A DNA stretch of 60,501 nt from a virus (Duplodnaviria; Caudoviricetes): IMG/VR virus record IMGVR_UViG_3300030116_002908, positions 1 through 60,501 of that record; one strand, given 5' to 3'. A program made the position numbers and the translations under genes. Below the pieces are notes generated by a model. That model searched no databases and was not told where the DNA came from. It saw nothing but the letters and a program-made list of their open reading frames with translations. Below, piece after piece: positions 1 to 60,501 of this stretch; within the stretch, counting starts at the first letter, position 1, and every line of letters begins with the position of its first letter.

Positions 1-389
1 GCGATGGCAGTACAACAACTTTCACATTAAATCAAACTGTAAGTTCAGAACAAGATATCGTTGTATCTGTAGATGGTGTGGTGCAAGAGCCAACTGGAGC
101 CTATACAGTGCCAGATGGAACAACTTTAACATTTACAGCCGCACCGAGTAATAACTCTGGCAACAATATTTTTGTTATGTTTTTTGGCAGAACATTTGGA
201 ACAGTTACACCAGCAGATGAAAATAAAGGTAATTTTAAATCTGGTGGTATCTTTAGAACGAACGCACAAAGTTTAACTTCTAACGTAACTATACTTGCCA
301 CAGAAAATGCACAAGTTACAGGTCCTTTAACAGTTGCATCTGGCGTGACTCTTACAGTTGAAAGTGGCGGAAGGTTAGTAACATCGTGA
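1..389 (+). CDS. Tail fibre anchor-like protein, 5'-partial (same gene begins at 60069)
   Basis: Frame is open from position 3 (DGSTTTFTLNQ...VSVDGVVQEP); an allelic copy is present at the window end. Confidence 0.7.
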   Translation, partial: DGSTTTFTLNQTVSSEQDIVVSVDGVVQEPTGAYTVPDGTTLTFTAAPSNNSGNNIFVMFFGRTFGTVTPADENKGNFKSGGIFRTNAQSLTSNVTILATENAQVTGPLTVASGVTLTVESGGRLVTS

Positions 390-27893: not shown

Positions 27894-28048
27894 AAACTAG
27901 AGAACAATTAAGACAAGCAATTTTTTACTATATGATGCTACACACTAAACATCAAAAATTATTAAAAGAGGAAGGTCGCCCAAATTATTTTAAGTCTGTA
28001 ATAGAAGAATTAAAACAAGAAATTTTGGAGTTAGACAATGAAAGTTAA
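27890..28048 (+). CDS. Hypothetical protein (52 aa, not in ORF track)
   Basis: AGGAG RBS, ATGA overlap; MKTREQLRQ...DNES*. Confidence 0.55.
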   Translation: MKTREQLRQAIFYYMMLHTKHQKLLKEEGRPNYFKSVIEELKQEILELDNES

Positions 28049-28355
28049 TTATAACAGGTTTTATTACAATCCATTACCTGATGAAGTTTGTATACAGGTT
28101 AGCCCCATTCATGGTCACGGCATTTACGCCACACAAGATATTAAGAAAGGCACAGACCTTGGCTCTACACATATCAAGGTGCCGATGATCCTGACTTACA
28201 TCAGAACACCGCTTGGTGGTTTTATAAATCACTCTGATCAGGCTAACTGCTATCTAGAATGTACACAAGACTGGGACGATTATCTTGTCTATAATATAAT
28301 TACAAAGAGACCGATTAAAAAAGATGAGGAGCTGACGTTAAATTATGAAGTATGA
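28038..28355 (+). CDS. SET domain protein (putative lysine methyltransferase)
   Basis: SPIHGHGIYA, FINHS...NC and EELTLNY SET signature motifs. Confidence 0.85.
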   Translation: MKVNYNRFYYNPLPDEVCIQVSPIHGHGIYATQDIKKGTDLGSTHIKVPMILTYIRTPLGGFINHSDQANCYLECTQDWDDYLVYNIITKRPIKKDEELTLNYEV

Positions 28356-28974: not shown

Positions 28975-30867
28975 ATGACACTACAAATGGCAATGTTTAC
29001 ACCGAAAAGCGAGTGGATACCACCTGAGCAACTTCCTGATCTGTCTTCAGCCAAGACCATCGCAATCGATGTCGAGACCAAAGATCCCGATATCAAAGGT
29101 AGCGGTCCAGGTTGGCCCACAGGTAATGGAGAGATTGTAGGCTACGCCGTAGCTGTCGATGGTTTTAAATGCTATGTGCCCATCAAACATCTTGGTGGCG
29201 GTAACCTTGATGAACGTATCGTCAATAACTGGATGAAGAAGATCTGCGAAAGCCCCGCTGATAAAATCATGCACAACGCACAATACGATGCCGGTTGGCT
29301 ACGTCGCACAGGTTTTAAAATTAATGGCCGTATTATTGATACAATGGTTGTCGCATCACTTCTCGATGAGAACAGGTTTAGCTACAGCCTTAACGCACTA
29401 GCCTATGATTATATATCGAAGACCAAGTCAGAGAAAGGATTGACTGAAGCAGCACAGGAGTTCGGTGTTGATCCGAAAGCAGAGCTATGGAAGCTACCGT
29501 CTATGTATGTTGGCCCCTATGCTGAGACTGACGCCGAAGTCACCTTGGAACTTTGGAATTGTTTCAAGGCTCTTATACAGAAAGAAGACTTACAATCTAT
29601 CGTCGATCTTGAGCTGGGCGTGTTACCTGTCCTTATCGACATGACATGGAAAGGTGTTCGTATCGATACAGACCGCGTTGAACGTACAAGAGACTATCTG
29701 CTCAAAGAAGAAAAGAAAGTTTATTCACGGATCAAGGAACTTACTAATGAAAACGTAGAGATATGGGCAGCCGCTTCGCTTGCCAAGGCTTTCGACAACG
29801 TCAGCCTACCGTATCCAAAGACCGACAAGGGCGCCCCAAGTTTCACAAAAGCGTTCCTTGCAGAACATACACACGAACTACCAAAGCTGATCCTCAGATG
29901 CCGTGAGCTTAACAAGACTCACGGTACGTTTATCAGCACTATTATGAAGTACACCACGCCTCAAGGCCGTATACACGGGCATATCAATCAGATTAGATCA
30001 GATGATGGCGGTACAGTTTCAGGACGGATTAGTATGAACCATCCTAACCTACAGCAGATTCCAGCCCGTGATCCACAGCTGGGACCAATGATACGCTCGT
30101 TGTTTTTACCTGAAGAGGGAGCCAAGTGGGCTAGTTTAGATTACTCGCAACAAGAACCACGGATCTTGGTTCACTACGCTCATGCTTACGCCCGATCACA
30201 GAACCACGACATGAAAGGTGTCAATGAGTTTGTAGACGGTTACATCAATGATCCTGACATGGATTTTCATACGATGGTAGCTGAAATGGCAAAGATACCA
30301 CGAAAGCAAGCCAAAACGATTAATTTAGGTTTGATCTATGGCATGGGCGTAAATAAGCTGTCAGATCAACTAGATATACCTGTAGATGAAGCTAAAGGTT
30401 TAATACAACAATACCATGACAGAGTCCCGTTTGTTAAACTTTTGATGAACGGCGTTATGAATAAGCTCAATAATCGCACCAGCTCAGGTTCGATTCGCTC
30501 CATACTTGGTCGTAAGTGCAGATTTGATCTATGGGAGCCCGATACGTTTGCTCTAAACAAGGCTCTGCCTTATAAAGAAGCGGTCAATGAATATGGGCCA
30601 ACGACAAGATTAAAGCGAGCTTACACTTACAAAGCACTTAACAGACTGATCCAAGCGTCAGCTGCTGATATGACAAAACAAGCCATGGTAAATATTTATT
30701 CTGAGGGAATTATCCCGCTAATTCAAATACATGACGAGATAGCTGTATCATTTACTTCAACTGATGAGACAAAAAAGGTTGCATCTATCATGGAAGACGC
30801 GGTAAAATTAAATGTCCCTAGTAAGGTCGATGTGGAAGTGGGACCTTCATGGGGCGAATGTGAGTAA
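28975..30867 (+). CDS. DNA polymerase family A with 3'-5' exonuclease
   Basis: IDVET, HNAQYD, GRIS..PNLQQIP, DYSQQEPR, RKQAKTINLGLIYG, QIHDE. Confidence 0.95.
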   Translation: MTLQMAMFTPKSEWIPPEQLPDLSSAKTIAIDVETKDPDIKGSGPGWPTGNGEIVGYAVAVDGFKCYVPIKHLGGGNLDERIVNNWMKKICESPADKIMHNAQYDAGWLRRTGFKINGRIIDTMVVASLLDENRFSYSLNALAYDYISKTKSEKGLTEAAQEFGVDPKAELWKLPSMYVGPYAETDAEVTLELWNCFKALIQKEDLQSIVDLELGVLPVLIDMTWKGVRIDTDRVERTRDYLLKEEKKVYSRIKELTNENVEIWAAASLAKAFDNVSLPYPKTDKGAPSFTKAFLAEHTHELPKLILRCRELNKTHGTFISTIMKYTTPQGRIHGHINQIRSDDGGTVSGRISMNHPNLQQIPARDPQLGPMIRSLFLPEEGAKWASLDYSQQEPRILVHYAHAYARSQNHDMKGVNEFVDGYINDPDMDFHTMVAEMAKIPRKQAKTINLGLIYGMGVNKLSDQLDIPVDEAKGLIQQYHDRVPFVKLLMNGVMNKLNNRTSSGSIRSILGRKCRFDLWEPDTFALNKALPYKEAVNEYGPTTRLKRAYTYKALNRLIQASAADMTKQAMVNIYSEGIIPLIQIHDEIAVSFTSTDETKKVASIMEDAVKLNVPSKVDVEVGPSWGECE

Positions 30868-30890
30868 AATCGCATAACTATCCTCCAAAA

Positions 30891-30926
30891 GTAAAAGGCT
30901 CAGAGCAAATCTTGAGCCTTTTTACC
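30891..30926 (+). terminator. Intrinsic terminator, possibly bidirectional
   Basis: AAAAGGCTCA...TGAGCCTTTTT hairpin after the polymerase gene. Confidence 0.65.
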
Positions 30927-31069
30927 ATTTACACCCCTCAAAAAATTTCAATACTAAAAAGGAGAAAAATTGAGAGACTTAAAAATTACTAAATAAAATA
31001 GTTAATTGCAACCTTTTTCTTGTAATATCTTGTAAAATCGCATAATATCTTAGAAAAAACGAGGTTTAC

Positions 31070-31276
31070 ATGGATACAAACAAGTGGAAAAGCGTTCTTG
31101 TGCCAAAAGATGTGTATGAAAAGATAAAAGTTATCGCAAAAACAGAGGGACGTACCATTGGCGGCCAGCTGAGACACATCTTCTCACAGTATAAGTCAGA
31201 AGACCAGGCTAGAGTTGAAGAGATGGTTGACGCTCACATGAAGCGAAAAAGTCAGTCAGCTGTATCAGCCGAATGA
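31070..31276 (+). CDS. Ribbon-helix-helix-type transcriptional regulator
   Basis: KSVLVPKDVYEKIKVIAKTEGRTIGGQL fits the Arc/CopG strand-helix-helix pattern. Confidence 0.65.
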   Translation: MDTNKWKSVLVPKDVYEKIKVIAKTEGRTIGGQLRHIFSQYKSEDQARVEEMVDAHMKRKSQSAVSAE

Positions 31277-31527
31277 AAACCTTCTTTCTGCATCAATTTA
31301 GAGGCCGTAACGCCCAAATTATATAAAGCGTCTGTCATAGGCCCGTCTGACGCTTTCTTGCCTCTGCTTGTTACAAACAGCTCTACTGGTTCTTCTGTGT
31401 CAGGATGATACGAGACTGTTATGGCAATGCCCTCTCCTACATCAGTTGTGATACACGGCCTACGGTTTGGTAATTTTGTGTGATTTGGTATGTTCATCTT
31501 TTCCTCTTCCTTTTGTTCTAATGACAT
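31252..31527 (-). CDS. Stand-alone TSCPD-like domain protein
   Basis: KLPNRRPCIT...ITVSY...PVELFV...GK resembles the domain found C-terminal to class II RNRs; start may be 31497. Confidence 0.5.
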   Translation of the reverse strand: MSLEQKEEEKMNIPNHTKLPNRRPCITTDVGEGIAITVSYHPDTEEPVELFVTSRGKKASDGPMTDALYNLGVTASKLMQKEGFHSADTAD

Positions 31528-31633
31528 GGGCTACTTTCCTTTGTATTTTGTGACAGGTACAACCGCTTGAGTACTTCTTTCGACCACATTGATGGCAAAT
31601 GACACACGGCTCTCCTCTAAAAACTTGATTCAT
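31460..31633 (-). CDS. Small Cys/His-rich protein (57 aa, not in ORF track)
   Basis: MNQVFRGEPCVICHQCGRKKYSSGCTCHK... Confidence 0.45.
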   Translation of the reverse strand: MNQVFRGEPCVICHQCGRKKYSSGCTCHKIQRKVAHVIRTKGRGKDEHTKSHKITKP

Positions 31634-31726
31634 AAACCTTTAACTATAAATAACTTTTTATAAATTAATAGACTTGACATTAAAAAAAGTTATAATCGAA
31701 TCATAACAACCGCAGAAAGGTTACAA

Positions 31727-32206
31727 ATGGACCCTGTAACGATTACCGCGGCTTTAAGTGTTGCTAAATCCGCTTTCACCGCAATCAAAAATGGTTTCGC
31801 AGTCGGAAAAGATATAGAATCTATGGGAAAAGACCTGTCACGCTGGATGGGAGCCCTGAGTGATGTGGACAACGCTGAGAAGACCACGAAGAATGCTTCA
31901 GCTCTACAAAAATTATTCAAGGGCAAAGAAATAGAAGCCTCGGCCATCGAAGCTTTTACAGCTAAAAAGAAACTGGAACAGCAAAGACAAGAGCTAAAGA
32001 CATTTATAAATTTTCACTATGGAAGTAATTCATGGAATGAGATCCTTAAAATGGAAGGGGAGATCAGGAAAAAACGTCAACAAGATATTTATGAACGCCA
32101 AGAACTTATCAGAAAAATATGGGAATGGATCGGTATTGTTATATTGTGTGCCTCAATTATAGGATTTATTACGCTGTTAGTTTATCTTTATGTAAATAAA
32201 AATTGA
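31727..32206 (+). CDS. Hypothetical membrane-anchored protein
   Basis: 159 aa with C-terminal TM helix; TTGACA at 31674 upstream. Confidence 0.7.
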   Translation: MDPVTITAALSVAKSAFTAIKNGFAVGKDIESMGKDLSRWMGALSDVDNAEKTTKNASALQKLFKGKEIEASAIEAFTAKKKLEQQRQELKTFINFHYGSNSWNEILKMEGEIRKKRQQDIYERQELIRKIWEWIGIVILCASIIGFITLLVYLYVNKN

Positions 32207-32232
32207 CACATATGTGATCATATGCGATAACT
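32203..32232 (+). promoter_or_regulatory. Promoter of candidate sRNA
   Basis: TTGACA-N12-TATGCGATAACT, same architecture and spacing as 34394-34423. Confidence 0.55.
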
Positions 32233-32236
32233 GGTG

Positions 32237-32365
32237 TTGAAAAAGAAACAATAAAACTACCTTTTTCAAGATTCTTTATTTTACGACCTTAATTAAAAAT
32301 AAAGAACTATATAATGTGTGATGAAAAGAAGCTGCATAAGACTCCTCCGTTTTATGCAGCTTTTT
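32237..32365 (+). ncRNA. Candidate trans-acting sRNA (three hairpins, seed, anti-SD loop, terminator)
   Basis: Stems 32237-45/32261-69, 32272-82/32296-306 and 32329-39/32352-62 plus U-tract; linker complementary to early-gene leaders. Confidence 0.6.
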
Positions 32366-32424
32366 ATTTGACATAGTAAATTATATGTATAAGATATGTC
32401 GCATAACACATTATAGGAGATGAA

Positions 32425-32550
32425 ATGATTAGAGAAAAACAAGGTAAATTTGTTTGCACTCATTGTGATTATACTTACAGCTCTATGCTTGGGGATGATG
32501 AAGTGCCTGAAGTTTGCGAAAAATGTGAAGATCCTGATGGTACAAAATAA
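32425..32550 (+). CDS. Rubredoxin-like/Zn-ribbon miniprotein (41 aa, not in ORF track)
   Basis: TTGACA at 32368, AGGAG RBS; FVCTHCDY...VCEKC. Confidence 0.65.
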   Translation: MIREKQGKFVCTHCDYTYSSMLGDDEVPEVCEKCEDPDGTK

Positions 32551-33259
32551 AACACACGCTGTTATGAGCCAAAGGCATGAGGATAAGGATAGTAAAGACT
32601 ACTTTCCTACTCCGCCTTGGGCAACAAGAGCTTTGTTTGAGAAAGTATTAAAAAAATATTGGCGTATACCTGATAAGTTTACTGGCCGATATGGGCATAT
32701 AAATTGTTTGGAGCCAGCTTGCGGAGCTGGTCACATGACAAAAGTATTGAAAGAGTATTTTGATACAGTTGTTTCAGCTGACATAGATGATTATGGTCAA
32801 GACCGAATCGCCGATTTTCTTAAAACAGACGAAAAGCAGAAGTATCATTATATTGTAACCAATCCACCATTTAACCTGGCGGAAGAATTTGTATTAAAAG
32901 CATTAAAACAAGCAAGATATTGTGTTGCTATCTTTGCAAGAACGCAGTTTTTAGAAAGTGTAGGAAGATATGAAAGATTATTTAAAGAGACACATCCTGA
33001 TTTTGTGGCTCAGTTTACAGAGCGAGTACCAATCCTTAAAGGAAAGCTATCGGCAACGGCGTCCACAGCTACGAGCTATGCTTGGTTTGTTTGGAAAGGC
33101 TTTGAAGAAGATGAAAGGTCGTTTAGAACAGATTTGGTTTGGATACCACCATGTAGAAGTCAGCTTGAAAAGGAGGGAGACTATGAAGAGAGTTTGGGAA
33201 CATCATATCCTAAGTCCACAAGTCACGCCTCGCAAAGAGACTTATTTCCAAAAAATTAA
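32537..33259 (+). CDS. DNA amino-methyltransferase (N6-A or N4-C)
   Basis: YFPTPPW, LEPACGAG (SAM binding), VTNPPF catalytic motif, YAWFVW; likely start is ATG 32537. Confidence 0.85.
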   Translation: MVQNKTHAVMSQRHEDKDSKDYFPTPPWATRALFEKVLKKYWRIPDKFTGRYGHINCLEPACGAGHMTKVLKEYFDTVVSADIDDYGQDRIADFLKTDEKQKYHYIVTNPPFNLAEEFVLKALKQARYCVAIFARTQFLESVGRYERLFKETHPDFVAQFTERVPILKGKLSATASTATSYAWFVWKGFEEDERSFRTDLVWIPPCRSQLEKEGDYEESLGTSYPKSTSHASQRDLFPKN

Positions 33260-33267
33260 AAACGCCT

Positions 33268-33498
33268 TTATATATAGACAGAAAAATAAAAAAAATAATT
33301 TTATTAAAAAATAGGTGTAACTAGTGTAACCGTGTAACTTTTACTCTGTATCCCTTTATATATATGGATTATAGCAGTTACATATATGGTTACATTACTG
33401 ATATACAAATATGTAACCATACTGTTAAATCAAGTTTGGCCTTATAAGAGCCTAAAAAGTTTTTTGAAAAAAAATAATTTCTGTTATATATATAAGAT
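33268..33498. repeat. Iteron-like TGTAAC direct/inverted repeat cluster in AT-rich DNA
   Basis: GTGTAAC at 33315, 33324, 33332; GTTACA at 33377, 33389; TGTAAC at 33412. Confidence 0.65.
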
Positions 33499-34083
33499 AT
33501 GAGTATTTTAAAACCTTTGAAAAAAGGAAGAGGTCGGCCAAAAGTCGATATACATAGCAAGCTTTCTCGTAAACAAGAAAAGTTTGTTAAAGAGCTTGTC
33601 TCAAACGATGGTATGATAACCATGAGAGAAGCTGCAATAAATGCTGGTTTTCCAGCTTCTTCAGCTCATACAAGAGCTTATGAAATGACTAATCCTGAAA
33701 TCTGTCCTCACGTTGTAAGAGCAATTCAACTTTATAGAGATGAACTGGATGAGAAATATGGCGTTAATTACAAACGACATTTAAAAGATTTGCAGACAAT
33801 TAGAGATAGAGCTTTAGAGAATGGTGCTTACTCAGCCGCTGTTCAGGCTGAGTATAGAAGAGGACAAGCACAAGGTAATATCTATATTAATAAATCTGAG
33901 ATCAGACATGGCACGATTGATAGTATGTCTAAGGATGAAGTAATAAAAGCTCTCAAGGAGATTAAAGATTCGTATGAGCCAAAAAGAGTTGAGGGAGTTA
34001 TTGACCACGAAGACACCGCCTCAGCCGAAGAAGGAAAACGGCTTCTATCAGGAGATCAAAAGAGCAGTAGAAAAACTGCCTGA
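33499..34083 (+). CDS. terS: Terminase small subunit
   Basis: LSRKQEKFVKELV...EAAINAGF..SAHTRA HTH pattern; AAVQAE..RG. Confidence 0.75.
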   Translation: MSILKPLKKGRGRPKVDIHSKLSRKQEKFVKELVSNDGMITMREAAINAGFPASSAHTRAYEMTNPEICPHVVRAIQLYRDELDEKYGVNYKRHLKDLQTIRDRALENGAYSAAVQAEYRRGQAQGNIYINKSEIRHGTIDSMSKDEVIKALKEIKDSYEPKRVEGVIDHEDTASAEEGKRLLSGDQKSSRKTA

Positions 34084-34408
34084 TAACATAATCCTGACAA
34101 GAATAGAAAACTGGATGACACTTGGCATACCTGATTTACTTGTCTGTGATGCAAAAGGTAAATTTCATTTTATAGAATTAAAAGTTACAGCTGGTAATGT
34201 TGTTAAGCTTTCGCCTAATCAGGTGGCTTGGTTAACTCGGCATGGGCATGGTTCAACTTGGATTATGGTTAGAGGCCGAGAGGACTTATATTTGTATCAG
34301 GGCAAAGATGCAGTAAAGCTGAGAAGCAAAGGTCTTCTACTCGAACCATATCTACAACTTAAATATCCTTTTGACTGGGAAAAACTTTTTAGTTTGACAA
34401 TAAATTAA
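33974..34408 (+). CDS. VRR-NUC / PD-(D/E)xK nuclease (Holliday junction resolvase-like)
   Basis: RIEN..LGIPDL...FIELK...LSPNQVAW. Confidence 0.8.
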   Translation: MSQKELRELLTTKTPPQPKKENGFYQEIKRAVEKLPDNIILTRIENWMTLGIPDLLVCDAKGKFHFIELKVTAGNVVKLSPNQVAWLTRHGHGSTWIMVRGREDLYLYQGKDAVKLRSKGLLLEPYLQLKYPFDWEKLFSLTIN

Positions 34409-34449
34409 AAGTATGCGACAACTCTTATACACATTATATAGGAGATTGT
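34394..34449 (+). promoter_or_regulatory. Early promoter, operator and conserved leader
   Basis: TTGACA, TATGCGAcaacTCTTAT, ACACATTATATAGGAG. Confidence 0.65.
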
Positions 34450-34698
34450 ATGAAAGACTATACTTTTAAATTAGACGTTGATATTTGGCTTGATCGTAAT
34501 TTTACAGCTAAAGCTAATTCTTTAGAAGAAGCTGAAGAAAAAGCTAAAGTTATGGCAAAAGAAATTTTTAAAGACGCCCCAAATGTTTACAATGGTAGAG
34601 AGGGAGGTAAATCATTAGAGCTGTTGGCAAACTATTTGTCAGACTGGAATTTTGGAGATTTACGTTTTGATGTTGTTAATGTCGAGGAGGAAGAGTAA
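34450..34698 (+). CDS. Early hypothetical protein
   Basis: 82 aa, A.SLEEAEEKA motif, strong RBS. Confidence 0.7.
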   Translation: MKDYTFKLDVDIWLDRNFTAKANSLEEAEEKAKVMAKEIFKDAPNVYNGREGGKSLELLANYLSDWNFGDLRFDVVNVEEEE

Positions 34699-35186
34699 TG
34701 ATTAAACCAAATTTAACAAAGACAAGTATAACTGACGGTACTGAAGTTAGAATGTTCCGTAATTTAAAAAGTTATACAAATAGTGTCCAAATGCGACTAC
34801 CAAATGCTGAGGGCAAAAACAGATGGATCACAGTTGGATACATCGATGAAATTAGATTGGACGAGGCACAATTTATTGTCCATGAAAAGACAAGACAAAA
34901 AGTGGCGGCCGAGGGCAAAAAATATGTCCATGCATTTGTCAAAGGTAAGTGGAGAACTAACTGGACACTTGGTCAAGGCCATTCACGAAATTACGATACC
35001 GATTTGGTTGAGTATAATCCCAAACAAAATAAACTTTTTAAAGTAACAGAATGGTACGGCGGTAAATATATTCAGCCTGACTGGAGAGGAACTGTTTATT
35101 TTGGTAAAGAAACATCAGATACAAGAGTTTCTCCGGAAGTATTTGTTAAAAAAGGAACACTAACAGTATGGAAAGAGAGGGATTAA
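34698..35186 (+). CDS. Early hypothetical protein
   Basis: FRNL...KYVHAFVKG...YNP pattern seen in phage early proteins. Confidence 0.7.
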   Translation: MIKPNLTKTSITDGTEVRMFRNLKSYTNSVQMRLPNAEGKNRWITVGYIDEIRLDEAQFIVHEKTRQKVAAEGKKYVHAFVKGKWRTNWTLGQGHSRNYDTDLVEYNPKQNKLFKVTEWYGGKYIQPDWRGTVYFGKETSDTRVSPEVFVKKGTLTVWKERD

Positions 35187-35405
35187 ATGAGCAAAATTGA
35201 ACTGACCAAAGAAGATAAACAAGAAATTATATCTTGTGTAATGGAGATCAAATTTATTTTAGAAAATGGTTTAGATGAAGGTTATGAAGCAGTTAATTCA
35301 GCTACAATAAACGGTTTTAGTTATGATAATGATGATGATCTTTACAAAGATTTTAAAAAAATTCAAAACTTAGATTTAAAATTGGAGGCCTTATGGAAAA
35401 GCTAA
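35187..35405 (+). CDS. Early hypothetical protein
   Basis: 72 aa, coupled. Confidence 0.6.
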   Translation: MSKIELTKEDKQEIISCVMEIKFILENGLDEGYEAVNSATINGFSYDNDDDLYKDFKKIQNLDLKLEALWKS

Positions 35406-35770
35406 AAGACTTAGGCAATCTTTGTATCGATTGCAAAGAAGATACAAGTTTTGGATCAGGTAAGTTCGTCAATCGTATACCAGCTGATGACGGAGAAGTT
35501 TCAGGATTTATGTGTGCTGATTGTCAGATGGTTGAATGTGATTCTTGTGAACAAAAAGTTTATGAATATGCAACTAGTGAACAAGGTATGTGGTGGTGTA
35601 TTGATAAATGTTACAAACCTGAAACACTAGTTGATATTAAAACTAAGCTTAAAGATGCCCAAGGTATGTTTAAAAGTTTATTAGAAACCTTTCCTGATGA
35701 CGAAGAAATAGACTTATTTAGTAGAAAACTTAACGAACTTTTTGAACTGATGGAGGGAGAAAATGACTGA
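35393..35770 (+). CDS. Zn-finger-like early protein
   Basis: CIDC..DTSFGSGKFVNRIPA...CADC...CDSC. Confidence 0.65.
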   Translation: MEKLKDLGNLCIDCKEDTSFGSGKFVNRIPADDGEVSGFMCADCQMVECDSCEQKVYEYATSEQGMWWCIDKCYKPETLVDIKTKLKDAQGMFKSLLETFPDDEEIDLFSRKLNELFELMEGEND

Positions 35771-35969
35771 TCAAGATTTGTTAGCTTTTAAAGATGGTGT
35801 TGCAGATGGATTGTTGCACGGAGAACGTGATGAAAATAAAAACAATCATTATTATAACCAAGGTTATGATTATGGAATTACTTTGTACTCCAAATTAAAA
35901 GATGACGAAGAAAAAGAATTACACAATGATGCTGTAATAGATAATCAATATGAAAGGAGGAATCATTAA
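35763..35969 (+). CDS. Early hypothetical protein
   Basis: FKDGVADG...YYNQGYDYG. Confidence 0.65.
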   Translation: MTDQDLLAFKDGVADGLLHGERDENKNNHYYNQGYDYGITLYSKLKDDEEKELHNDAVIDNQYERRNH

Positions 35970-36046
35970 TGTTCATTTTACATTACCTAATGAAATGGCT
36001 TTACGGTGAGGATTATGAAAAGCATATGAAACGCCGTAGAAAATAG
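35969..36046 (+). CDS. 25 aa miniprotein
   Basis: AGGAGG RBS, TAATG overlap; MFILHYLMKWLYGEDYEKHMKRRRK*. Confidence 0.55.
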   Translation: MFILHYLMKWLYGEDYEKHMKRRRK

Positions 36047-36052
36047 CAAATT

Positions 36053-36079
36053 AAGGCCGTGATTGACACGGCCTTTTTT
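36053..36079 (+). terminator. Intrinsic terminator
   Basis: AAGGCCGTG-attga-CACGGCCTT then T-tract. Confidence 0.8.
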
Positions 36080-36123
36080 ATTTGATAAATATATAAGATA
36101 AATCACATATTATAGGAGAACTT

Positions 36124-36357
36124 ATGTCAAGATATCATTCAGACGCAATTGACGAAGCTTGCGAAGAAAATTTAGGTCACACCAATTGGTGCTATGCAAG
36201 ATTAGAACAACTTGAAGAAATTATAGCTGAAGAAAAAGCTAGAATTAAACAAGGTAAAGCTAGTAAAGGTATTAGTTTTGGAGATGCTATAGAGTGTATA
36301 GTAATTTTTTACAATGAACCTGATGAAGATGAAGATGAAAATGAGGAGGATGAATAA
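36124..36357 (+). CDS. Acidic-tailed early protein
   Basis: 77 aa, conserved leader and RBS. Confidence 0.65.
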   Translation: MSRYHSDAIDEACEENLGHTNWCYARLEQLEEIIAEEKARIKQGKASKGISFGDAIECIVIFYNEPDEDEDENEEDE

Positions 36358-36716
36358 TGGCCGTAATGATTAGATGCATAGAGAATGAGGGAACGTATGA
36401 GCGCTCCCACAAACGGTTTTTTGATTTGTTATATTTAAAAAAGAAAAAAACTAAAATTAATGGCAAAACTTGGACCGAAAATATTATTGTAAATAGCGAA
36501 GGTAAAGAGATTAAAGATAAAGATTTACTCAGGCTAACTTATGCAAATTTTAAAGTTTTTGAAAAAGAAGGATACGATGATTTTTTTATGGTCAGAGAAT
36601 ATATTGACGCCGACGGCAATTGTCAGCATGGTCCTGAAATAGATGTTTATATTGATCGAAAAGATCATGTAGATGAAGATGATATGAAAGTTTTAAGATA
36701 CTGGGGATTTGCATAA
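36357..36716 (+). CDS. Early hypothetical protein
   Basis: 119 aa, TAATG coupling. Confidence 0.65.
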   Translation: MAVMIRCIENEGTYERSHKRFFDLLYLKKKKTKINGKTWTENIIVNSEGKEIKDKDLLRLTYANFKVFEKEGYDDFFMVREYIDADGNCQHGPEIDVYIDRKDHVDEDDMKVLRYWGFA

Positions 36717-36749
36717 AACTTTACATATAAGAAAAATCTGATATAAATG

Positions 36750-36778
36750 AAAGCTGGGATTTATTCTCAGCTTTTTTT
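36750..36778 (+). terminator. Hairpin plus T-tract (duplicated at 37527)
   Basis: AAAGCTGGGA-tttat-TCTCAGCTTTTTTT. Confidence 0.6.
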
Positions 36779-36796
36779 ATCACATAGGAGGGAAAA

Positions 36797-37495
36797 ATTT
36801 TAAAATTAGTAAACAAATCATCGGCTAAAAAAACTACAAATTGTGCGGTAACATATAGAGCTGGTGGCCAAGATAAGTTTGCCACTTGCCCTATTACTTG
36901 CAGTTTAAAACCTGATGCTTCAGCTGGTGCCAGCAAAATAGATACTGAATATTTAAATGCGGTATCTGATGCGGTCCCAGCTGGTGGCGTAAGCTTCACA
37001 TATTCTCATTTTAATCCTAGGTATTGGAAGCATAAATTAAAATTTGGCAAAACTACAATTAACTATTCAGCAAAAAATCTAACTGATCTTTTATTGCACA
37101 GCTTCGTACCAGCTGTAATTAATGTTAAGGATACATTCTGGAATAATAAAAAATCACAAAAAATTTCAGGCAAACTAATTGTCAGATGCCCAGCTGAATA
37201 TTCAAGTATTGATTGTAGTACTTGCGGTAATGGTAAACCTTTATGCTCACGGCTGGATAGGTTATATGCAATTGGTTTTACTGATCATGGCACTTATAAG
37301 AAAATTGCCGGTAATGAAAATGAAAATGGTGGTTGTTATGCAACGGCCGGTAATGTTAACTTACATTGGAATGCCACGGCATTAAGTAAAGATAAACAAT
37401 CCGATAGTAAAAAGCTTATAAGCTGGTCTAAAGCATTACCAGCTGGAACAGTTTTAAGGCACCATATAGCCGGAGACTTTGGAAAAATAGAATAA
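36797..37495 (+). CDS. Cys-rich GP88-like protein, 232 aa, ATT start
   Basis: Frame open from ATT 36797 behind GGAGG; TCP..C, FTYSH, CPAE..C..C..LC, GCYA, LRHHIAGD. Confidence 0.65.
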   Translation: MLKLVNKSSAKKTTNCAVTYRAGGQDKFATCPITCSLKPDASAGASKIDTEYLNAVSDAVPAGGVSFTYSHFNPRYWKHKLKFGKTTINYSAKNLTDLLLHSFVPAVINVKDTFWNNKKSQKISGKLIVRCPAEYSSIDCSTCGNGKPLCSRLDRLYAIGFTDHGTYKKIAGNENENGGCYATAGNVNLHWNATALSKDKQSDSKKLISWSKALPAGTVLRHHIAGDFGKIE

Positions 37496-37526
37496 ACTTT
37501 ACATATAAGATAAAAAGTATATATTT

Positions 37527-37553
37527 AAAGCTGGGATTATTCCCAGCTTTTTT
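37527..37553 (+). terminator. Hairpin plus T-tract
   Basis: AAAGCTGGGA-ttat-TCCCAGCTTTTTT. Confidence 0.65.
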
Positions 37554-37583
37554 AATTCACACATTTAAAAAGGAGAAAATATT

Positions 37584-38771
37584 GTGAGAAATTTAGAAAA
37601 TGAAAATAGAACTTTAGAATCTTTATGTACTGAGATTTTAGAGTTAAATAGAAAAAAACAAGATTATATTGCACCGACAAACCAGCTTCAGGTTAAAACC
37701 GTCGTTAATGAAGACGGCCCAAATACCACACAAATAATTATGGAAGCTGATCACGGAGAGAAAACAAAAATCTTGAATGCAAATGACGTATGCTTAGATC
37801 AGATGAATGTTAAAAACGGTTTGGACACCAAGGTAGGCCGTAGGCTTCAAAATAATTATCCTAAGGAATATGATCAATTAACAAATGCTATTTTAGAAAA
37901 AGAGCCTTGTAAACGTATGATCAGATCATTTAATTATCCTCAGGCACCTAGTAATGAAGCTTTACATAATTTAACAACCGGGCAGTACATGAATAATGTT
38001 ATTGGTACCGCTAGAGCGTATTTATCGGATAGATTTAAAACTTTTGATAATTCTGATTTATTGGAGTCTGCATTACCTACACTTGCCGAGTCTGGTGCCT
38101 GCTGGAAAATTGTCAATTATGCTAATACTGATAAAAAACTTTACATCAGATTAAAAAGCGAAATTCAAACCGCCGACGCTGGCGTCGGAGATCATATGGC
38201 CAATGGTCTATTTATTTCTAATTCTGAAGTAGGTTTTTCAAGTATTGCAACCGGTATGACATTATGGACCTTAGCTTGTTTAAACGGTATGCAAACCGAA
38301 AAAATCACGCGTAAGGCCCATATAACGTCCGCGAGAAATGGGGATAATTGGAATATATTAACCGATGAAACTAAGGACGCCGACAACCAGCTTTTAAAGC
38401 TTCAGATGAGAGATATTATAGCTTCATATGGTAGCCGTGAAGAGTTTGATAATCAGGTTGAATTATTTAGGAAGGCTAAAGAGGATAAAATATCTACTGA
38501 TAAAAATATGAATGACGCTGTAGAGGACTTAGGCAAAGTTATGGCCTTATCCAAAAAAGAGACTTCCAGCGTACTGGAAGGCCTTTTAAATACTATTGGG
38601 CAATCCGGTTATGAACAAGGCCAGCCGATCAATAAGGCCACATTAGTTAACGCTTGTACTGCGGTAGGTAATAAGGCCCAGCCGGACGACGTGGACTTTT
38701 GGCAACGTTTAGGCGGTAAAGTTTTAAACCTTAATAAAAATGACTGGAATAGAGTCGCCTTGGCCAGTTAA
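37584..38771 (+). CDS. DUF932-like protein
   Basis: ARAYLSDRFK.FDN, ISNSEVG, LACLNGM...H motifs. Confidence 0.75.
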   Translation: MRNLENENRTLESLCTEILELNRKKQDYIAPTNQLQVKTVVNEDGPNTTQIIMEADHGEKTKILNANDVCLDQMNVKNGLDTKVGRRLQNNYPKEYDQLTNAILEKEPCKRMIRSFNYPQAPSNEALHNLTTGQYMNNVIGTARAYLSDRFKTFDNSDLLESALPTLAESGACWKIVNYANTDKKLYIRLKSEIQTADAGVGDHMANGLFISNSEVGFSSIATGMTLWTLACLNGMQTEKITRKAHITSARNGDNWNILTDETKDADNQLLKLQMRDIIASYGSREEFDNQVELFRKAKEDKISTDKNMNDAVEDLGKVMALSKKETSSVLEGLLNTIGQSGYEQGQPINKATLVNACTAVGNKAQPDDVDFWQRLGGKVLNLNKNDWNRVALAS

Positions 38772-38808
38772 AATGCAACCTTGGTGATAACAGTTTTATG
38801 AACTGGAT

Positions 38809-38841
38809 TAAACGGCCTTTACTTTTAGGCCGTTTTTTTTT
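38809..38841 (+). terminator. Intrinsic terminator
   Basis: AAACGGCCT...AGGCCGTTTTTTTTT. Confidence 0.8.
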
Positions 38842-38878
38842 ATCTTTAATTATCACATTTTATATAGGAGAAAAATTT

Positions 38879-39085
38879 ATGAGTGATTTAAAAACAATCA
38901 ATTATTTAGATCTAGATTGTGAAAATTGTTTTACAATTAATGAATCGATTCATGGCCATTACGAAAACGACAAAAGCGGTAATATACCAGCTGGAGAGTT
39001 TAAACAATGTAAAGAATGCCTTTTGTATGGCGCAGAATTAAAAGTAAGTAAAATTTTAAAATGTCATACTATGGAAATCATTTAA
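38879..39085 (+). CDS. Zn-ribbon early protein
   Basis: ATG 38879 after AGGAG; CENC...CKEC. Confidence 0.65.
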   Translation: MSDLKTINYLDLDCENCFTINESIHGHYENDKSGNIPAGEFKQCKECLLYGAELKVSKILKCHTMEII

Positions 39086-39113
39086 TATAAAGCTGGACCG
39101 CAGCAGCTGCATC

Positions 39114-39144
39114 AACGCCGTTATTTACTAACGGCGTTTTTTTT
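39114..39144 (+). terminator. Intrinsic terminator
   Basis: AACGCCGTTA-tttac-TAACGGCGTT plus T-tract. Confidence 0.8.
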
Positions 39145-39190
39145 GTTACAAATTACAAGAATCACATTTTATATTATGAAAGGAGTCGAA

Positions 39191-39706
39191 ATGTTGAATC
39201 ATCAATTAACTTGTAAAGAGCGAGTCGCCGGAGAGCTGGCCGACCGTTTAAACGATATTAAAACCGCTAATCTATTTTTTAGCAGTTTACAAAATATAAA
39301 ACGTAAGGCCAAAAATAAGGCAATCCCTGAAAACTTTTTTAAAATTGTTAAAAGCTTAGATTTAAGAAGTTATGAAAGTATGACCGAATTTTTAAACAGT
39401 TATTCTTTATGTTTTGATTATGTTGACGGCTTACAAGCTGAACAAGAAAATAGCGGTAATTATTGGCGGTTACAGTTAAGCTGGGGCGGTCCTTCCGATG
39501 AATTTAGAATATTCTGGAATTTAGAAGACGGAATTTATAGAATAGATTATTGGTTTATGGACTGGTACGACGGCGCAAAAATAACGCTTAATAAACATCA
39601 TGACGATTTTAGTTTATTACGCCGAATCATTTATATTGAATATTTAGAACCGTGGATTGAAGGCCACGCTGACGGCTATAAATCGATCAGATATTACCAA
39701 AGTTAA
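39191..39706 (+). CDS. Early hypothetical protein
   Basis: YWRLQLSWGGPSDEFR...YWFMDWYDGA motif; AAGGAG RBS. Confidence 0.7.
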   Translation: MLNHQLTCKERVAGELADRLNDIKTANLFFSSLQNIKRKAKNKAIPENFFKIVKSLDLRSYESMTEFLNSYSLCFDYVDGLQAEQENSGNYWRLQLSWGGPSDEFRIFWNLEDGIYRIDYWFMDWYDGAKITLNKHHDDFSLLRRIIYIEYLEPWIEGHADGYKSIRYYQS

Positions 39707-39731
39707 AATATAACTTCATAATTTTACTAAC

Positions 39732-39761
39732 GCCGTCCGGCCAGCTGGACGGCTTTTTTTT
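39732..39761 (+). terminator. Intrinsic terminator ending the early region
   Basis: GCCGTCC.GC...GCTGGACGGC plus T-tract. Confidence 0.75.
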
Positions 39762-40200
39762 ATTCTATGCGCTGCTTTTTTTAATTTAGGACGCGTCACA
39801 AGCTGTAGCGCGTTTATAATAGTTAATTAAGGCCCAGCGCGCCTTTTATACCGCTTTAAAACCTACGACGCGCGCCAGCTGGTCCCTGAACCGTATTAAT
39901 TGAATTGTAAACCGTGGAGTCTGTTAGCTGGTCCACGGACCGTAAACAGCTGGCCACGGTCCGCGATCCGCGCCAGCTGGTCCACGACTCCGGCATCAGG
40001 AATCATAAATTAAAACTGGTTTATCTTTACCAGCTGGACCGGCACCAGCTGGACCGGATCCGCGCGCCGGCCGGGAAGGAAACAGGATAAAAAAAAATAG
40101 GATCCTTCCAAAATAAAGTTTAATTTTTAAGGCCGGAATCTTTAATATTTTTATTTTTTCCGCGGTCCCACAGCCGTTGTGCACGACGGCATTTGCCAAG
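39732..40200. repeat. GC-rich non-coding palindrome cluster (CAGCTG, GGWCC, CCGG, CGCG)
   Basis: Six CAGCTG(G) copies between about 39741 and 40052, often followed by TCC or ACC. Confidence 0.7.
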
Positions 40201-40296
40201 TTTTTCTCAAATATTCAGATAAAATTTGATATAAGCGTTAACTATATTATAATAAGCGATAAATGGCATAAAATAACATAGCATAGGGGCCCCTAC

Positions 40297-60068: not shown

Positions 60069-60501
60069 ATGCCTTTGATTGGTAACAATATATCACCAGC
60101 TTTTGAGAGCAACAAGACAAGAGTTTAGTGGCGATGGCAGTACAACAACTTTCACATTAAATCAAACTGTAAGTTCAGAACAAGACATTGTTGTATCCGT
60201 AGATGGTGTGGTGCAAGAGCCAACTGGAGCTTACACTGTGCCAGATGGTACAACTTTAACATTTTCAGCAGCACCAAGTAATAACTCTGGCAATAATATT
60301 TTTGTCATGTTCTTTGGTAGAACATTTGGAACAGTTACCCCAGCAGCAGAAAACAAAGGTAACTTTAAATCTGGTGGTATATTTAGAACTAATGCACAAA
60401 GTTTAACTTCTAACGCAACTATACTTGCTACAGAGAACGCACAAGTTACAGGTCCGTTAACAGTTGCATCTGGTGTGACTCTGACAGTTGAAAGTGGTGG
60501 A
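60069..60501 (+). CDS. Tail fibre anchor-like gene, 3'-partial, apparent frameshift near 60110
   Basis: MPLIGNNISPAFES then +1 frame TRQEFSGDGSTTTFTLNQ... Confidence 0.55.
60131..60501 (+). repeat. Imperfect terminal direct repeat of 1-371
   Basis: First 55 nt identical, then about 30 substitutions over 371 nt by manual comparison, no indels. Confidence 0.9.

What the first reader, a model, noticed from the sequence alone, without database searches (positions are those of the whole stretch)
32203..32365. Candidate phage sRNA that targets the shared leader of seven early genes
Seen: an intergenic unit with its own promoter (TTGACA 32203), two perfect stems (9 and 11 bp), an unpaired linker CTATATAATGTGTGAT (32307-32322), and a terminator hairpin whose loop holds the anti-SD CTCCTCC (32342-32348). 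The reverse complement of the linker, ATCACACATTATATAG, matches the sequence just 5' of the SD of seven downstream genes: 32406 ACACATTATA (10 nt); 34429 ACACATTATATAG (13 nt perfect); 36102 ATCACAtATTATA; 36779 ATCACAtA; 37557 TCACACATT; 38852 ATCACAttTTATATAG; 39161 ATCACAttTTATAT. The recurrent deviation is C to T at one position, which keeps a G:U pair, as expected for RNA-RNA rather than protein-DNA recognition. Inference: a trans-encoded multi-target sRNA that shuts off translation of the early regulon, with each gene cassette carrying the address tag. I know of no such system described for this phage group.
Basis: partly seen in the sequence, partly recalled or inferred. Interest (0 to 1): 0.92.

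Follow-up and report, generated by a model that had tools for sequence, protein, structure and literature searches.

The report
Candidate antisense RNA against shared phage leaders
A marine phage carries a conserved, strongly folded non-coding stretch whose one unpaired segment is the mirror-image complement of a tag that precedes the ribosome-binding site of seven swappable gene units, so it may be a phage RNA that controls all of them by base pairing, but this has not been tested.

Summary
At 32203-32365 there is a TTGACA box, two AT-rich hairpins, a 16-20 nt unpaired linker and a strong terminator (MFE -36.4 kcal/mol, z -6.8). The linker is a non-random inverted copy of a leader tag, ATCACAYWTTATA(TA)-GGAG. 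A matrix built from five leaders alone scores it 20.6 bits, second best in the genome, and 0 of 60 random genomes reach that.

The window is a whole 60.5 kb HTVC023P-type marine phage. The unit occurs only in one narrow clade. Across 15 distinct variants the linker never changes, hairpin 2 is kept by two different stem sequences, and the terminator shows compensatory pairs.

The tag belongs to PeSL-like promoter/terminator/leader boundary modules. At least six unrelated genes follow the same promoter and leader in close relatives.

With corrected start codons the seven leaders rank 1, 2, 3, 6, 7, 8 and 9 of 80 by accessibility-corrected pairing energy. Only two stand clear of background.

Seed-target covariation cannot be tested, and no expression data could be reached. 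The inverted copy also extends into the terminator arm, which suggests it arose by inversion of a terminator-leader module.

Verdict: a good but unproven multi-target antisense RNA candidate (about 0.4). The main rival is a DNA-level or relic element.

The parts
32203..32231 (+). Promoter-like site: TTGACA (32203-08), 14 nt, TGc, GATAAC (32226-31). The stop codon of gene 31727-32206 lies inside the -35 box.
   Evidence: Invariant in all variants. Not listed by the promoter scan because the second hexamer lacks the final T. The same TATGCGAYAAC -10 region occurs at the 34394 promoter.
32209..32224 (.). CATATG-TGAT-CATATG repeat in the promoter spacer, possibly an operator. It contains ATCACATAT on the - strand.
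   Evidence: (flagged as a - strand hairpin at 32226-32207).
32238..32269 (+). Hairpin 1: 9 bp stem, 15 nt loop.
   Evidence: All 9 core pairs are unchanged in 15 of 15 variants, so they give no covariation information.
32273..32306 (+). Hairpin 2: 10-11 bp AT stem, 13 nt loop.
   Evidence: Kept in 15 of 15 variants by two different stem sequences, type A and type B.
32307..32322 (+). Unpaired linker CTATATAATGTGTGAT, an inverted copy of the leader tag.
   Evidence: The 18 nt run AACTATATAATGTGTGAT is invariant in 15 of 15 variants and is the longest invariant run in the unit.
32326..32365 (+). Terminator: A-rich run, GC-containing stem, CU-rich loop (CTCCTCC 32342-48), T-run. It is directly followed by the TTGACA of the next promoter.
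   Evidence: 2 pairs changed on both sides and kept. CUCC is present in all six loop variants. TTGACA follows the T-run in all variants.
32368..32418 (+). Promoter TTGACA-16-TAAGAT plus leader tag ATAACACATTATAGGA (32403-18) of gene 32425-32550.
   Evidence: At least six unrelated genes follow this promoter and leader in relatives.
34394..34441 (+). Promoter TTGACA-17-GACAAC plus leader tag (ACACATTATATAG 34429-41) of the operon starting at 34450.
36102..36117 (+). Leader tag ATCACATATTATAGGA before gene 36124.
   Evidence: The promoter scan places a -10 (CATATT 36106-11) inside the tag.
36716..36786 (+). Repeated promoter-like plus hairpin module, followed by the short tag ATCACATA (36779-86) and GGAGG.
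   Evidence: (D4, D9).
37494..37565 (+). Second copy of the promoter-like plus hairpin module, followed by the tag TCACACATT (37557-65).
   Evidence: D4, D9, I2; TTTACA-16-TATATT; terminator 37527-50.
38852..38867 (+). Leader tag ATCACATTTTATATAG before the ATG at 38879. This is the best predicted pairing.
39161..39174 (+). Leader tag ATCACATTTTATAT before the ATG at 39191.

Best explanation
The stretch 32232-32365 is made as + strand RNA, either as a separate RNA of about 130 nt from the TTGACA/TGcGATAAC promoter or as the structured 3' end of the mRNA of gene 31727-32206. It ends at the 32326-32365 terminator.

Two hairpins and the terminator hold a 16-20 nt segment single-stranded. That segment pairs with the tag AUCACAYWUUAUA(UA), which lies about 5-31 nt upstream of the start codon and abuts the GGAG, in the leaders of the seven transcription units between 32.4 and 39.2 kb. 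Pairing next to the Shine-Dalgarno sequence would change ribosome access or mRNA decay for all tagged units at once.

Because gene cassettes are exchanged at the tagged promoter/leader boundary, a newly acquired gene would automatically come under the same control.

Shown: the structure, its conservation, the complementarity and its non-randomness.
Inferred: that the RNA exists, that it pairs, and the sign of the effect (repression is the default guess).
For: Structure:
- z -6.77, 0 of 200 shuffles as stable.
- The divergent variants L009, L105, L111 and L013 give z -5.07, -5.36, -3.93 and -6.27.
- All 15 distinct variants fold to three hairpins with the linker unpaired, mean p 0.75-0.77.
- Hairpin 2 is kept by two different stem sequences.
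- Two terminator pairs changed on both sides and were kept.

Conservation:
- The linker is invariant in 15 of 15 variants and sits between variable blocks. A 16th, cut variant agrees.

Complementarity:
- The linker is a non-random inverted tag: 20.6 bits, rank 2 genome-wide, 0 of 60 null genomes.
- The core pattern gives 6 hits against 1.23 expected, with 0 of 100 shuffles reaching 6.
- Pairing ranks are 1, 2, 3, 4, 6, 8 and 12 of 80 for hybrid energy and 1, 2, 3, 6, 7, 8 and 9 of 80 with accessibility.
- Duplexes fall between -31 and -5 relative to the start codons.

Independence of the unit:
- The terminator is followed at once by the next TTGACA in every variant, so downstream genes do not depend on read-through.
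- In 9 of 35 entries the adjacent leader lacks the tag yet the linker is unchanged. This argues against a purely local cis pairing.

No conserved ORF:
- The ATG behind the - strand SD is lost in the L013 type and in L105.
- Single-base indels in the hairpin 1 loop break the 30-aa - strand frame.
Against: - No expression data.
- No covariation is possible: there is one clade and the seed is invariant.
- Only two targets stand clear of background. The other five (-8.3 to -6.6) overlap the unrelated sites at -8.1 and -8.0.
The good ranks depend on my start-codon corrections.
- Shuffled linkers sometimes do as well: 4 of 300 for the best target, 7 of 300 for the third, 2 of 200 for the seventh.
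- The -10 of the promoter is imperfect.
- For 36102 the best sigma-70-type promoter puts the start site downstream of the tag. That mRNA may therefore lack the tag unless it comes from read-through.
- Similarity of the inverted copy continues into the terminator arm and T-run (17 of 18 aligned positions to 36779 and 21 of 23 to 37557; I2, 72). This points to an inverted DNA module whose tag may be a passenger.
- Duplexes are AU-rich.
- 38852 and 39161 carry an internal U:U mismatch.
Confidence: 0.4

Rival explanations
1. DNA-level element or relic. The tag belongs to PeSL-like terminator/promoter/leader boundary modules that spread and are kept by recombination, or are bound by a protein. The copy in the unit is an inverted terminator-plus-tag module. 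It is either a fossil of an inversion or one more site for a DNA-binding factor that works in either orientation. On this reading the hairpins are only the 3' UTR and bidirectional terminator of gene 31727-32206.
For: - The same promoter and leader are followed by at least six unrelated genes in close relatives, and 9 of 35 entries have another arrangement. Other tagged leaders also front different genes.
- Repeated promoter-like plus hairpin modules occur (D4, D9).
- Inverted similarity extends beyond the 16-mer into the hairpin arm and T-run (I2, 72).
- A second, 29-nt inverted similarity links the 32377-32405 promoter region and 34412-34440 (I1).
- ATCACATAT also occurs on the - strand in the spacer of the unit's promoter.
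- A weak ribbon-helix-helix hit (E 6.8e-5, 23 bits, below the cut-off of 26) in the 68-aa protein 31070-31276 offers a possible DNA binder.
- Composite promoter/terminator cassettes at indel boundaries are described for T4-like phages (PMC4122927, passages read).
Against: - A functionless relic should not be the longest invariant run (18 nt) between two variable blocks in 15 variants.
- Nor should it match the tag consensus better than four of the five leaders used to build the matrix.
- The tag is asymmetric, unlike most operators.
- All other copies have one orientation and a fixed position against the SD, which fits an RNA-level role better.
- No binding protein has been identified.
Confidence: 0.3
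2. Cis-acting RNA element. The two adjacent stem-loops behind the promoter act on the transcribing polymerase or on the mRNA of the upstream gene. Options are processive antitermination of the HK022 put kind (recalled, not checked here), 3'-end protection, or attenuation. On this reading the many terminators of the 32-40 kb region are read through or the upstream mRNA is stabilised. The complementarity to the leaders is incidental.
For: - Two contiguous stem-loops directly behind a promoter-like site, then a terminator, then a region with 6 further + strand terminator-like sites. The scan of 30800-40400 finds 17 terminator-like sites on both strands against 5.5 expected.
- Hairpin 2 structure is conserved with sequence change.
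- The unit is contiguous with gene 31727-32206, with no terminator in between.
Against: - Every variant has a full TTGACA promoter immediately after the unit's terminator, so downstream expression does not need read-through.
- This reading does not explain the invariant linker or its match to the tag.
- No Rfam family matches at gathering score. The best weak hits have E 0.44-10.
Confidence: 0.12
3. The tag is a promoter or start-site element for a phage-specific transcription machinery. It resembles the ...TATAG-G end of T7-type promoters, which is my recollection and not a call result. The inverted copy would then be a - strand promoter or a decoy.
For: - A conserved block of about 16-19 nt stands at the head of each transcription unit.
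- In 3 of the 7 no sigma-70 -35 box is evident between terminator and tag.
Against: - No RNA polymerase was found. PHROGs on 20 proteins, Pfam on 30 and PDB sequence searches of the 1529- and 1086-aa proteins gave nothing. Not all of the roughly 85 ORFs were scanned.
- The tag always abuts the SD (0-6 nt), which would give almost leaderless mRNAs.
- Two tags lie just downstream of good sigma-70 promoters.
- Nothing follows the - strand copy: no SD and no conserved ORF.
Confidence: 0.05
4. A small protein is encoded on the - strand. The loop reads GGAGGAG on the - strand and is followed by an ATG, giving a 14-aa frame MQLLFITHYIVLYF. There is also a 30-aa frame at 32269-32177.
For: - Strong SD-like GGAGGAG 4-6 nt before the ATG at 32337 on the - strand (my reading of the sequence).
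- The 30-aa ORF is listed.
Against: - The ATG is ATA in the L013 type and ACG in L105.
- Single-base indels in the hairpin 1 loop (L005 type, L008, L012, L103) shift the 30-aa frame.
- Almost all genes of this genome are on the + strand.
Confidence: 0.03

Closest known systems
PeSLs (promoter-early stem-loops): composite terminator/promoter cassettes that mediate modular gene shuffling in T4-like phages. Sources: PMC4122927, passages read; PMC2839356, search listing only.
   Same: - Short repeated intergenic modules with a stem-loop/terminator plus a sigma-70-like promoter, clustered in a variable region.
- They sit at the boundaries of gene replacements between close relatives.
   Different: - Found here in an HTVC023P-type, podovirus-like phage of 60.5 kb, not a T4-like myovirus.
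- The conserved block includes a leader tag abutting the SD.
- One inverted copy sits in an unpaired segment of a structured non-coding unit. No such feature appears in the PeSL passages I read.
Phage P4 CI RNA, with P1/P7 c4 as a similar case. The P4 description comes from a passage in PMC4825925; c4 is recalled.
   Same: A small phage RNA pairs with short complementary sequences repeated in the phage's own leader transcripts and so controls a block of phage genes.
   Different: - CI is processed from the same untranslated leader. It pairs with two sites (seqA, seqC) of one operon and causes transcription termination for immunity in a temperate element.
- Here the candidate has its own promoter-like site and terminator, or is a 3' UTR. 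There are seven separate transcription units, the target lies next to the SD, and no lysogeny genes were seen.
- No Rfam family, including phage antisense RNA families, matched.
Trans-acting phage sRNAs such as VpdS (VP882) and PreS (lambda), and cis-antisense RNAs such as sar (P22), OOP and aQ (lambda). Source: review PMC12197685, section 2 read.
   Same: - A stand-alone small RNA with a Rho-independent terminator and an accessible pairing segment.
- Regulation by base pairing near translation start sites.
   Different: - The described cases target host mRNAs or a single phage gene, and the cis-antisense ones overlap their target.
- Here one seed would address a family of phage leaders through a shared tag.
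- Chaperone dependence is unknown, and the host is unknown.
T4 RegA and RegB, protein regulators that shut down many early mRNAs at their translation start regions (recalled, not checked here).
   Same: One factor acts on many early or accessory mRNAs through a short shared sequence at or near the SD (GGAG for RegB).
   Different: Those factors are proteins. Here the candidate effector is RNA, and the recognised sequence lies 5' of the GGAG.

Membership tests
Trans-encoded base-pairing sRNA (general class) | Discrete transcript with its own promoter and an intrinsic terminator | tested here: inconclusive
   - A perfect -35, TG-extended GATAAC and a strong terminator are present and conserved.
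- The -10 lacks the final T and was not called by the scan.
Trans-encoded base-pairing sRNA (general class) | Accessible single-stranded seed complementary to target translation-initiation regions | tested here: met
   - Linker unpaired with p 0.57-0.98.
- The seven leaders rank 1, 2, 3, 6, 7, 8 and 9 of 80.
- Only two are clearly above background.
Trans-encoded base-pairing sRNA (general class) | Seed conserved and co-varying with targets in relatives | tested here: inconclusive
   - The seed is invariant in 15 of 15 variants, so no covariation can be scored.
- The unit and tag are confined to one clade.
Trans-encoded base-pairing sRNA (general class) | Demonstrated regulation of targets | not testable with these tools
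   Needs reporter fusions with compensatory mutations.
Known RNA families (Rfam 15, including phage antisense RNAs) | Match to a covariance model at gathering score | tested here: not met
   - 0 matches at gathering score in the whole window.
- In 32100-32500 the best is STnc50 at 20.8 bits against a gathering score of 55, E 0.44.
PeSL mobile regulatory cassettes | Repeated composite stem-loop/terminator plus sigma-70-like promoter in intergenic regions of a variable genome segment | tested here: met
   - 17 terminator-like sites against 5.5 expected in 30800-40400.
- Repeated promoter-plus-hairpin modules at 36716 and 37494 (D4, D9).
- Intergenic listing.
PeSL mobile regulatory cassettes | Located at the junctions of gene insertions, deletions or replacements between close relatives | tested here: met
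   Behind the unit, the conserved promoter and leader are followed by at least six unrelated first genes, and 9 of 35 entries have a different arrangement.
PeSL mobile regulatory cassettes | Described in T4-like myoviruses with their early-promoter consensus | tested here: not met
   The nearest large terminases are the HTVC023P-type pelagiphages and related marine phages at 54-63% aa identity. The genome is 60.5 kb. So this works like a PeSL system but is not a member of the described set.
HK022 put-type cis antiterminator RNA | Two stem-loops in the nascent RNA that make the polymerase terminator-resistant | not testable with these tools
   - The topology is similar, with two adjacent stem-loops behind a promoter.
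- The function cannot be computed.
- The description of put is recalled, not read.
Single-subunit (T7-type) RNA polymerase promoter | The phage encodes such a polymerase | tested here: not met
   No RNA polymerase family in 20 proteins (PHROGs), 30 proteins (Pfam) or 2 PDB sequence searches. Not every ORF was scanned.

The most novel reading that the evidence does not exclude
A lytic marine phage of the very abundant HTVC023P-type group runs a plug-and-play regulon. One small RNA carries the antisense of an address tag. That tag sits in the recombination-prone promoter/leader boundary of every accessory gene cassette. Any gene captured at such a boundary is therefore wired at once into the same post-transcriptional control. 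The RNA gene itself would have been born by inversion of one terminator-leader module.
Probability: 0.3. Interest if true: 0.85.

Novelty: new variant of a known kind. Interest (0 to 1): 0.6.

Why it matters
Phage-encoded regulatory RNAs are only now being mapped, mostly in temperate coliphages and vibriophages. I found none reported for the HTVC023P-type marine phages. Searches gave nothing. The words promoter, terminator, sRNA and intergenic are absent from PMC9599517. Promoter and non-coding are absent from the HTVC027P transcriptome paper PMC12753301. Supplements could not be seen.

If the pairing is real, it would show how a phage can co-regulate a fast-changing set of accessory genes through a shared leader tag. 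It would link modular gene shuffling, of the PeSL kind, to RNA control.

Even if the RNA idea fails, the PeSL-like boundary modules outside the T4-like phages are a useful finding. So is the hotspot behind the unit, where at least six alternative genes occur.

Tried and rejected
- Rfam: nothing at gathering score in the whole window, and only chance-level hits in the region. There are no tRNAs.
- DNA-level relatives in GenBank phages: none by megablast of 31000-36000. HTVC027P and 023Pt_psg01 were fetched, but only their annotation tables were read. The motif regexes gave no hit in L089 or L090.
- Homologues with a different linker:
  - The hairpin 1 pattern in IMG/VR gave only clade members plus coding hits in unrelated contigs.
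  - The promoter 27-mer in metagenome contigs gave 11 more clade members.
  - The linker with flank was found in 0 cellular genomes.
- Exact 17-mer linker outside the clade: two hits. L081 is inside a coding region. L085 is intergenic in an unrelated contig of 43% GC. Both were treated as chance.
- Tag 17-mers outside the clade: 6 of 9 loci tested share no protein with the window, so they are chance or unrelated.
- Distant relatives: 22 loci of at least 9 kb have no 8-mer shared by three or more leaders, apart from two trivial cases.
- The + strand TATAAT inside the linker as a promoter: no conserved -35 (my reading). Rejected.
- Invertible-promoter switch between the linker and the 32406 tag: the partner tag is missing in 9 of 35 entries and no recombinase was seen. 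Rejected.
- The - strand mini-ORFs: start codon lost or frame shifted in relatives. Rejected.
- The first energy ranking used longest-ORF starts and misplaced two leaders, at ranks 75 and 21 of 81. It was redone after checking the starts.
- RNAalifold did not call hairpin 2, because MAFFT misaligns the two stem types. Each variant was therefore folded singly.
Full report
**What the window is.** The 60,501-base window is the entire genome record. Nearly all ORFs are on the + strand. PHROGs names a primase, helicase, family-A DNA polymerase, large terminase, portal and virion proteins. The large terminase is closest (54-63% aa) to Pelagibacter phages HTVC027P and HTVC023P, to phage 023Pt_psg01 and to DSL-LC04. 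So this is an HTVC023P-type marine phage, a group described as very abundant in ocean viromes (bioRxiv 10.1101/2019.12.14.876532, passages read). GC content is 38%. Genes run through a replication block (23.1-30.9 kb). A loosely packed block of small transcription units with many terminators follows (30.9-39.7 kb). The structural genes start at 40.3 kb.

**The observation.**
- RNA folding of 32232-32366 (+) gives hairpin 1 (9 bp), hairpin 2 (10-11 bp), a run of about 20 nt that stays unpaired, and a 17-pair terminator hairpin with a U-run.
- The MFE is -36.4 kcal/mol, z is -6.77, and 0 of 200 shuffles fold as well.
- The reverse strand folds less well (-31.8, z -4.80).
- The linker bases have unpaired probabilities of 0.57-0.98.
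- The promoter has a perfect -35 and a TG-extended GATAAC, 17 nt away. This hexamer lacks the usual final T, and the scan did not list the site.
- The stop codon of the upstream gene (31727-32206) lies inside the -35 box, and no terminator separates the gene from the unit. The stretch should therefore be transcribed on the + strand in any case, at least as that gene's 3' UTR. This is an inference.

**Is the complementarity more than chance?**
- The 16-mer with up to three mismatches is not impressive: 4 hits against 1.07 expected, with 3 of 100 shuffles reaching 4.
- The core ACAYWTTATA occurs six times against 1.23 expected, and 0 of 100 shuffles reach six. Five copies are on the + strand directly before a GGAG. 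The sixth is the linker on the - strand.
- A weight matrix built from five leaders only, without the linker, scores the linker 20.6 bits. That is the second-best position on either strand of the genome and better than four of the five training sites. The maximum in 60 first-order Markov genomes was 18.5.

The linker is a genuine inverted copy of a genuine leader motif.

**Pairing energies.**
- With the longest-ORF starts, the seven leaders ranked 3, 1, 2, 5, 10, 75 and 21 of 81.
- The two bad ranks came from wrong starts. The ATGs behind the SD are at 38879 and 39191, and the terminators lie inside the 'longer ORFs'. The 36797-37495 frame has no ATG/GTG/TTG near its GGAGG.
- With these starts, the hybrid energies rank 1, 2, 3, 4, 6, 8 and 12 of 80, from -18.9 to -11.3 kcal/mol.
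- With opening energies for both partners, the ranks are 1, 2, 3, 6, 7, 8 and 9 of 80.
- Only 38879 (-14.8) and 36124 (-12.8) stand clear. The other five (-8.3 to -6.6) overlap the best unrelated sites (27890 at -8.1, 21138 at -8.0).
- Shuffled linkers reached the observed best in 4 of 300 trials, the third best in 7 of 300, and the seventh best in 2 of 200.
- The duplexes fall between -31 and -5 relative to the start codon, next to the SD and not over it.
C to T at tag position 7 keeps a G:U pair, but 38852 and 39161 also have A to T at position 8, which gives a U:U mismatch.

**Relatives.**
- The protein upstream of the unit has 80 related loci in IMG/VR.
- The unit is present only where that protein is at least 90% identical (L001-L014). 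None of L015-L080 (at most 78% identity) holds the promoter 27-mer or the linker. There the gene is followed directly by other ORFs (whose output was partly cut).
- The tag is likewise confined to the clade. In 22 distant loci of at least 9 kb, no 8-mer is shared by three or more leaders apart from two trivial cases.
- Together with 11 metagenome contigs, there are 36 entries with the promoter 27-mer. Several contigs were fetched twice. They give 15 distinct full-length variants.

**What the 15 variants show.**
- The 18-nt run AACTATATAATGTGTGAT is invariant in 15 of 15 and is the longest invariant run of the unit. It lies between two variable blocks. A 16th, truncated variant agrees.
- Hairpin 1 and the promoter are almost invariant as well.
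- Hairpin 2 exists in two sequence types that use different arms, TTCTTTATTTT/AAAATAAAGAA and TTATTCTT../..AAGAATAA. Every variant still folds into the same three hairpins with the linker open, mean unpaired p 0.75-0.77. The z scores of four divergent variants are -3.9 to -6.3.
- The terminator has two pairs changed on both sides and kept.
- All six loop variants keep CUCC, the complement of GGAG.
- The variation comes from few events, probably block replacements, so these are supportive rather than strong statistics.
- Because the seed never varies, seed-target covariation, which is the decisive in-silico test, cannot be done.

**What the tag belongs to.**
- Each transcription unit between 32.4 and 39.2 kb starts with the tag. 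The exception is the TerS-like gene at 33499.
- In relatives the tag fronts further, different genes, in variants such as ATCACACATTAAGGAG, ATCACACAAAGGAG and ATCACATATTTTATAGGAG.
- Directly behind the unit, the conserved promoter and leader are followed by at least six unrelated first genes, with N-termini MIRE.., MANK.., MKDIQ.., MEKPL.., VAKEQ.. and MEDEL... In 9 of 35 entries another promoter without the tag leads straight into the methyltransferase.
- The block also holds a repeated promoter-like plus hairpin module at 36716 and 37494 (D4, D9). It is rich in intrinsic terminators, 17 against 5.5 expected.
- This is the behaviour described for PeSLs, the composite terminator/promoter cassettes at indel boundaries in T4-like phages (PMC4122927, passages read; PMC2839356, listing only). 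Here it occurs in an unrelated phage type.

**Origin of the inverted copy.** The similarity of the - strand of the unit to the modules at 36779 and 37557 does not stop at the tag. It continues through the T-run into the last bases of the hairpin arm, CAGCTT(C)TTTT.AT.ACA (17 of 18 and 21 of 23 aligned positions; I2, 72). A second 29-nt inverted similarity links 32377-32405 and 34412-34440 (I1). The simplest history is that a terminator-plus-tag module was inverted. A hairpin survives inversion, and its former T-run became the A-rich run that now extends the unit's terminator stem. This explains how an antisense seed could arise. It equally allows the tag copy to be a passenger.

**Weighing the mechanisms.**
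- For an RNA that acts by pairing: the open, invariant seed in a conserved scaffold; the position of the targets against the SD; and the full promoter that follows the unit's terminator in every variant, so the unit is not merely a leader for downstream genes. The linker also stays unchanged where the neighbouring leader lacks the tag, so it is not a local cis structure.
- Against: In addition, the promoter scan puts a -10 inside the tag at 36102, so that mRNA might start downstream of it.
- The DNA-level rival has support. The tag partly recurs on the - strand in the unit's own promoter spacer. A weak ribbon-helix-helix hit sits 1 kb upstream. The modules clearly recombine. However, it does not explain well why the inverted copy is the most consensus-like and the best conserved stretch.
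- A put-like cis antiterminator fits the two stem-loops but not the linker (put is recalled, not read).
- A phage-polymerase promoter is unlikely, since no polymerase was found in the proteins scanned (not all ORFs).
- The - strand mini-ORFs are not conserved.

I put the pairing RNA at 0.4, the DNA-level or relic reading at 0.3, a cis RNA role at 0.12, and the rest below 0.1.

**Comparison with what is known.**
- No Rfam family matches.
- The nearest described logic is the P4 CI RNA. It pairs with two repeated sites in the phage's own leader transcript (passage in PMC4825925). P1 c4 is similar (recalled).
- Trans-acting phage sRNAs such as VpdS and PreS, and cis-antisense RNAs such as sar, OOP and aQ, are reviewed in PMC12197685 (section 2 read). 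None of those described there addresses a family of separate phage operons through a common leader tag.
- I found no mention of promoters, terminators, sRNAs or intergenic elements in the HTVC023P-type genome paper. The HTVC027P transcriptome paper has no mention of promoters or non-coding RNA. Supplements were closed and may hold more.

If real, this is a new variant of antisense control. If not, it remains a clear case of PeSL-like modular boundaries outside the T4-like phages.

**Verdict.** Interest is 0.6: this is a well-formed, testable candidate in an ecologically dominant phage group, but all functional steps are inferred.

Noticed in passing
window 33260-33498: A 239-nt non-coding stretch before the TerS-like gene (33499-34083) carries three direct TGTAAC copies, then GTTACA/GTAACC copies in the opposite sense. 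It could be a packaging or replication site. The gene has no GGAG and no leader tag.
   Followed up: no
window 39707-40296: A 590-nt non-coding region between the cassette block and the large terminase is much richer in G+C than the rest. It has repeated ..GCGCCAGCTGGTCC.. units (D3) and many CCAGCTGG palindromes. A TTGATA-16-TATAAT promoter sits at 40226-40253.
   Followed up: no
window 36788-37495: An open frame of about 232 aa with a DUF7227 match (E 8e-23) has a GGAGG but no ATG, GTG or TTG near it. An ATT at 36797 sits 5 nt behind the SD and may be the start.
   Followed up: partly
window 36716-36780 and 37494-37556: Two copies of a module of about 60 nt: ACTTTACATATAAGA.., a -10-like TATAAA/TATATT, then a terminator-like hairpin starting 2-3 nt later. 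The hairpin would be at the very 5' end of any transcript from this promoter, acting as an attenuator or a 5' stabiliser.
   Followed up: partly
window 30870, 31038, 32399 (+ strand TCGCATAA); 32221 and 34412 (TATGCGAYAA, the other sense): A second short word recurs next to five promoters in both orientations. TCGCATAA alone is not significant: 4 hits against 1.7 expected, and 15 of 100 shuffles reach 4.
   Followed up: partly
window 31070-31276: A 68-aa protein gives a weak ribbon-helix-helix (CopG-like) hit: E 6.8e-5, 23 bits, below the cut-off of 26. It is a possible small DNA-binding regulator about 1 kb upstream of the unit.
   Followed up: no
window 1-80 and about 60128-60210: The first 80 bases of the record recur near its end with a few differences. 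This is either an overlap from circular assembly or two paralogous gene starts (..GDGSTTTFTLNQTV..).
   Followed up: no
window 28038-28355: A 105-aa protein in the replication block has a SET-domain match, E 4.6e-12.
   Followed up: no
L092, L093, L095-L097, L099, L101 (unrelated viral contigs): The hairpin 1 search pattern hit a short basic ORF (..LKKKL.KEGLFQE..R..) in several unrelated viral contigs. It looks like a phage-borne ribosomal protein S21. That name is my recollection and was not tested.
   Followed up: no
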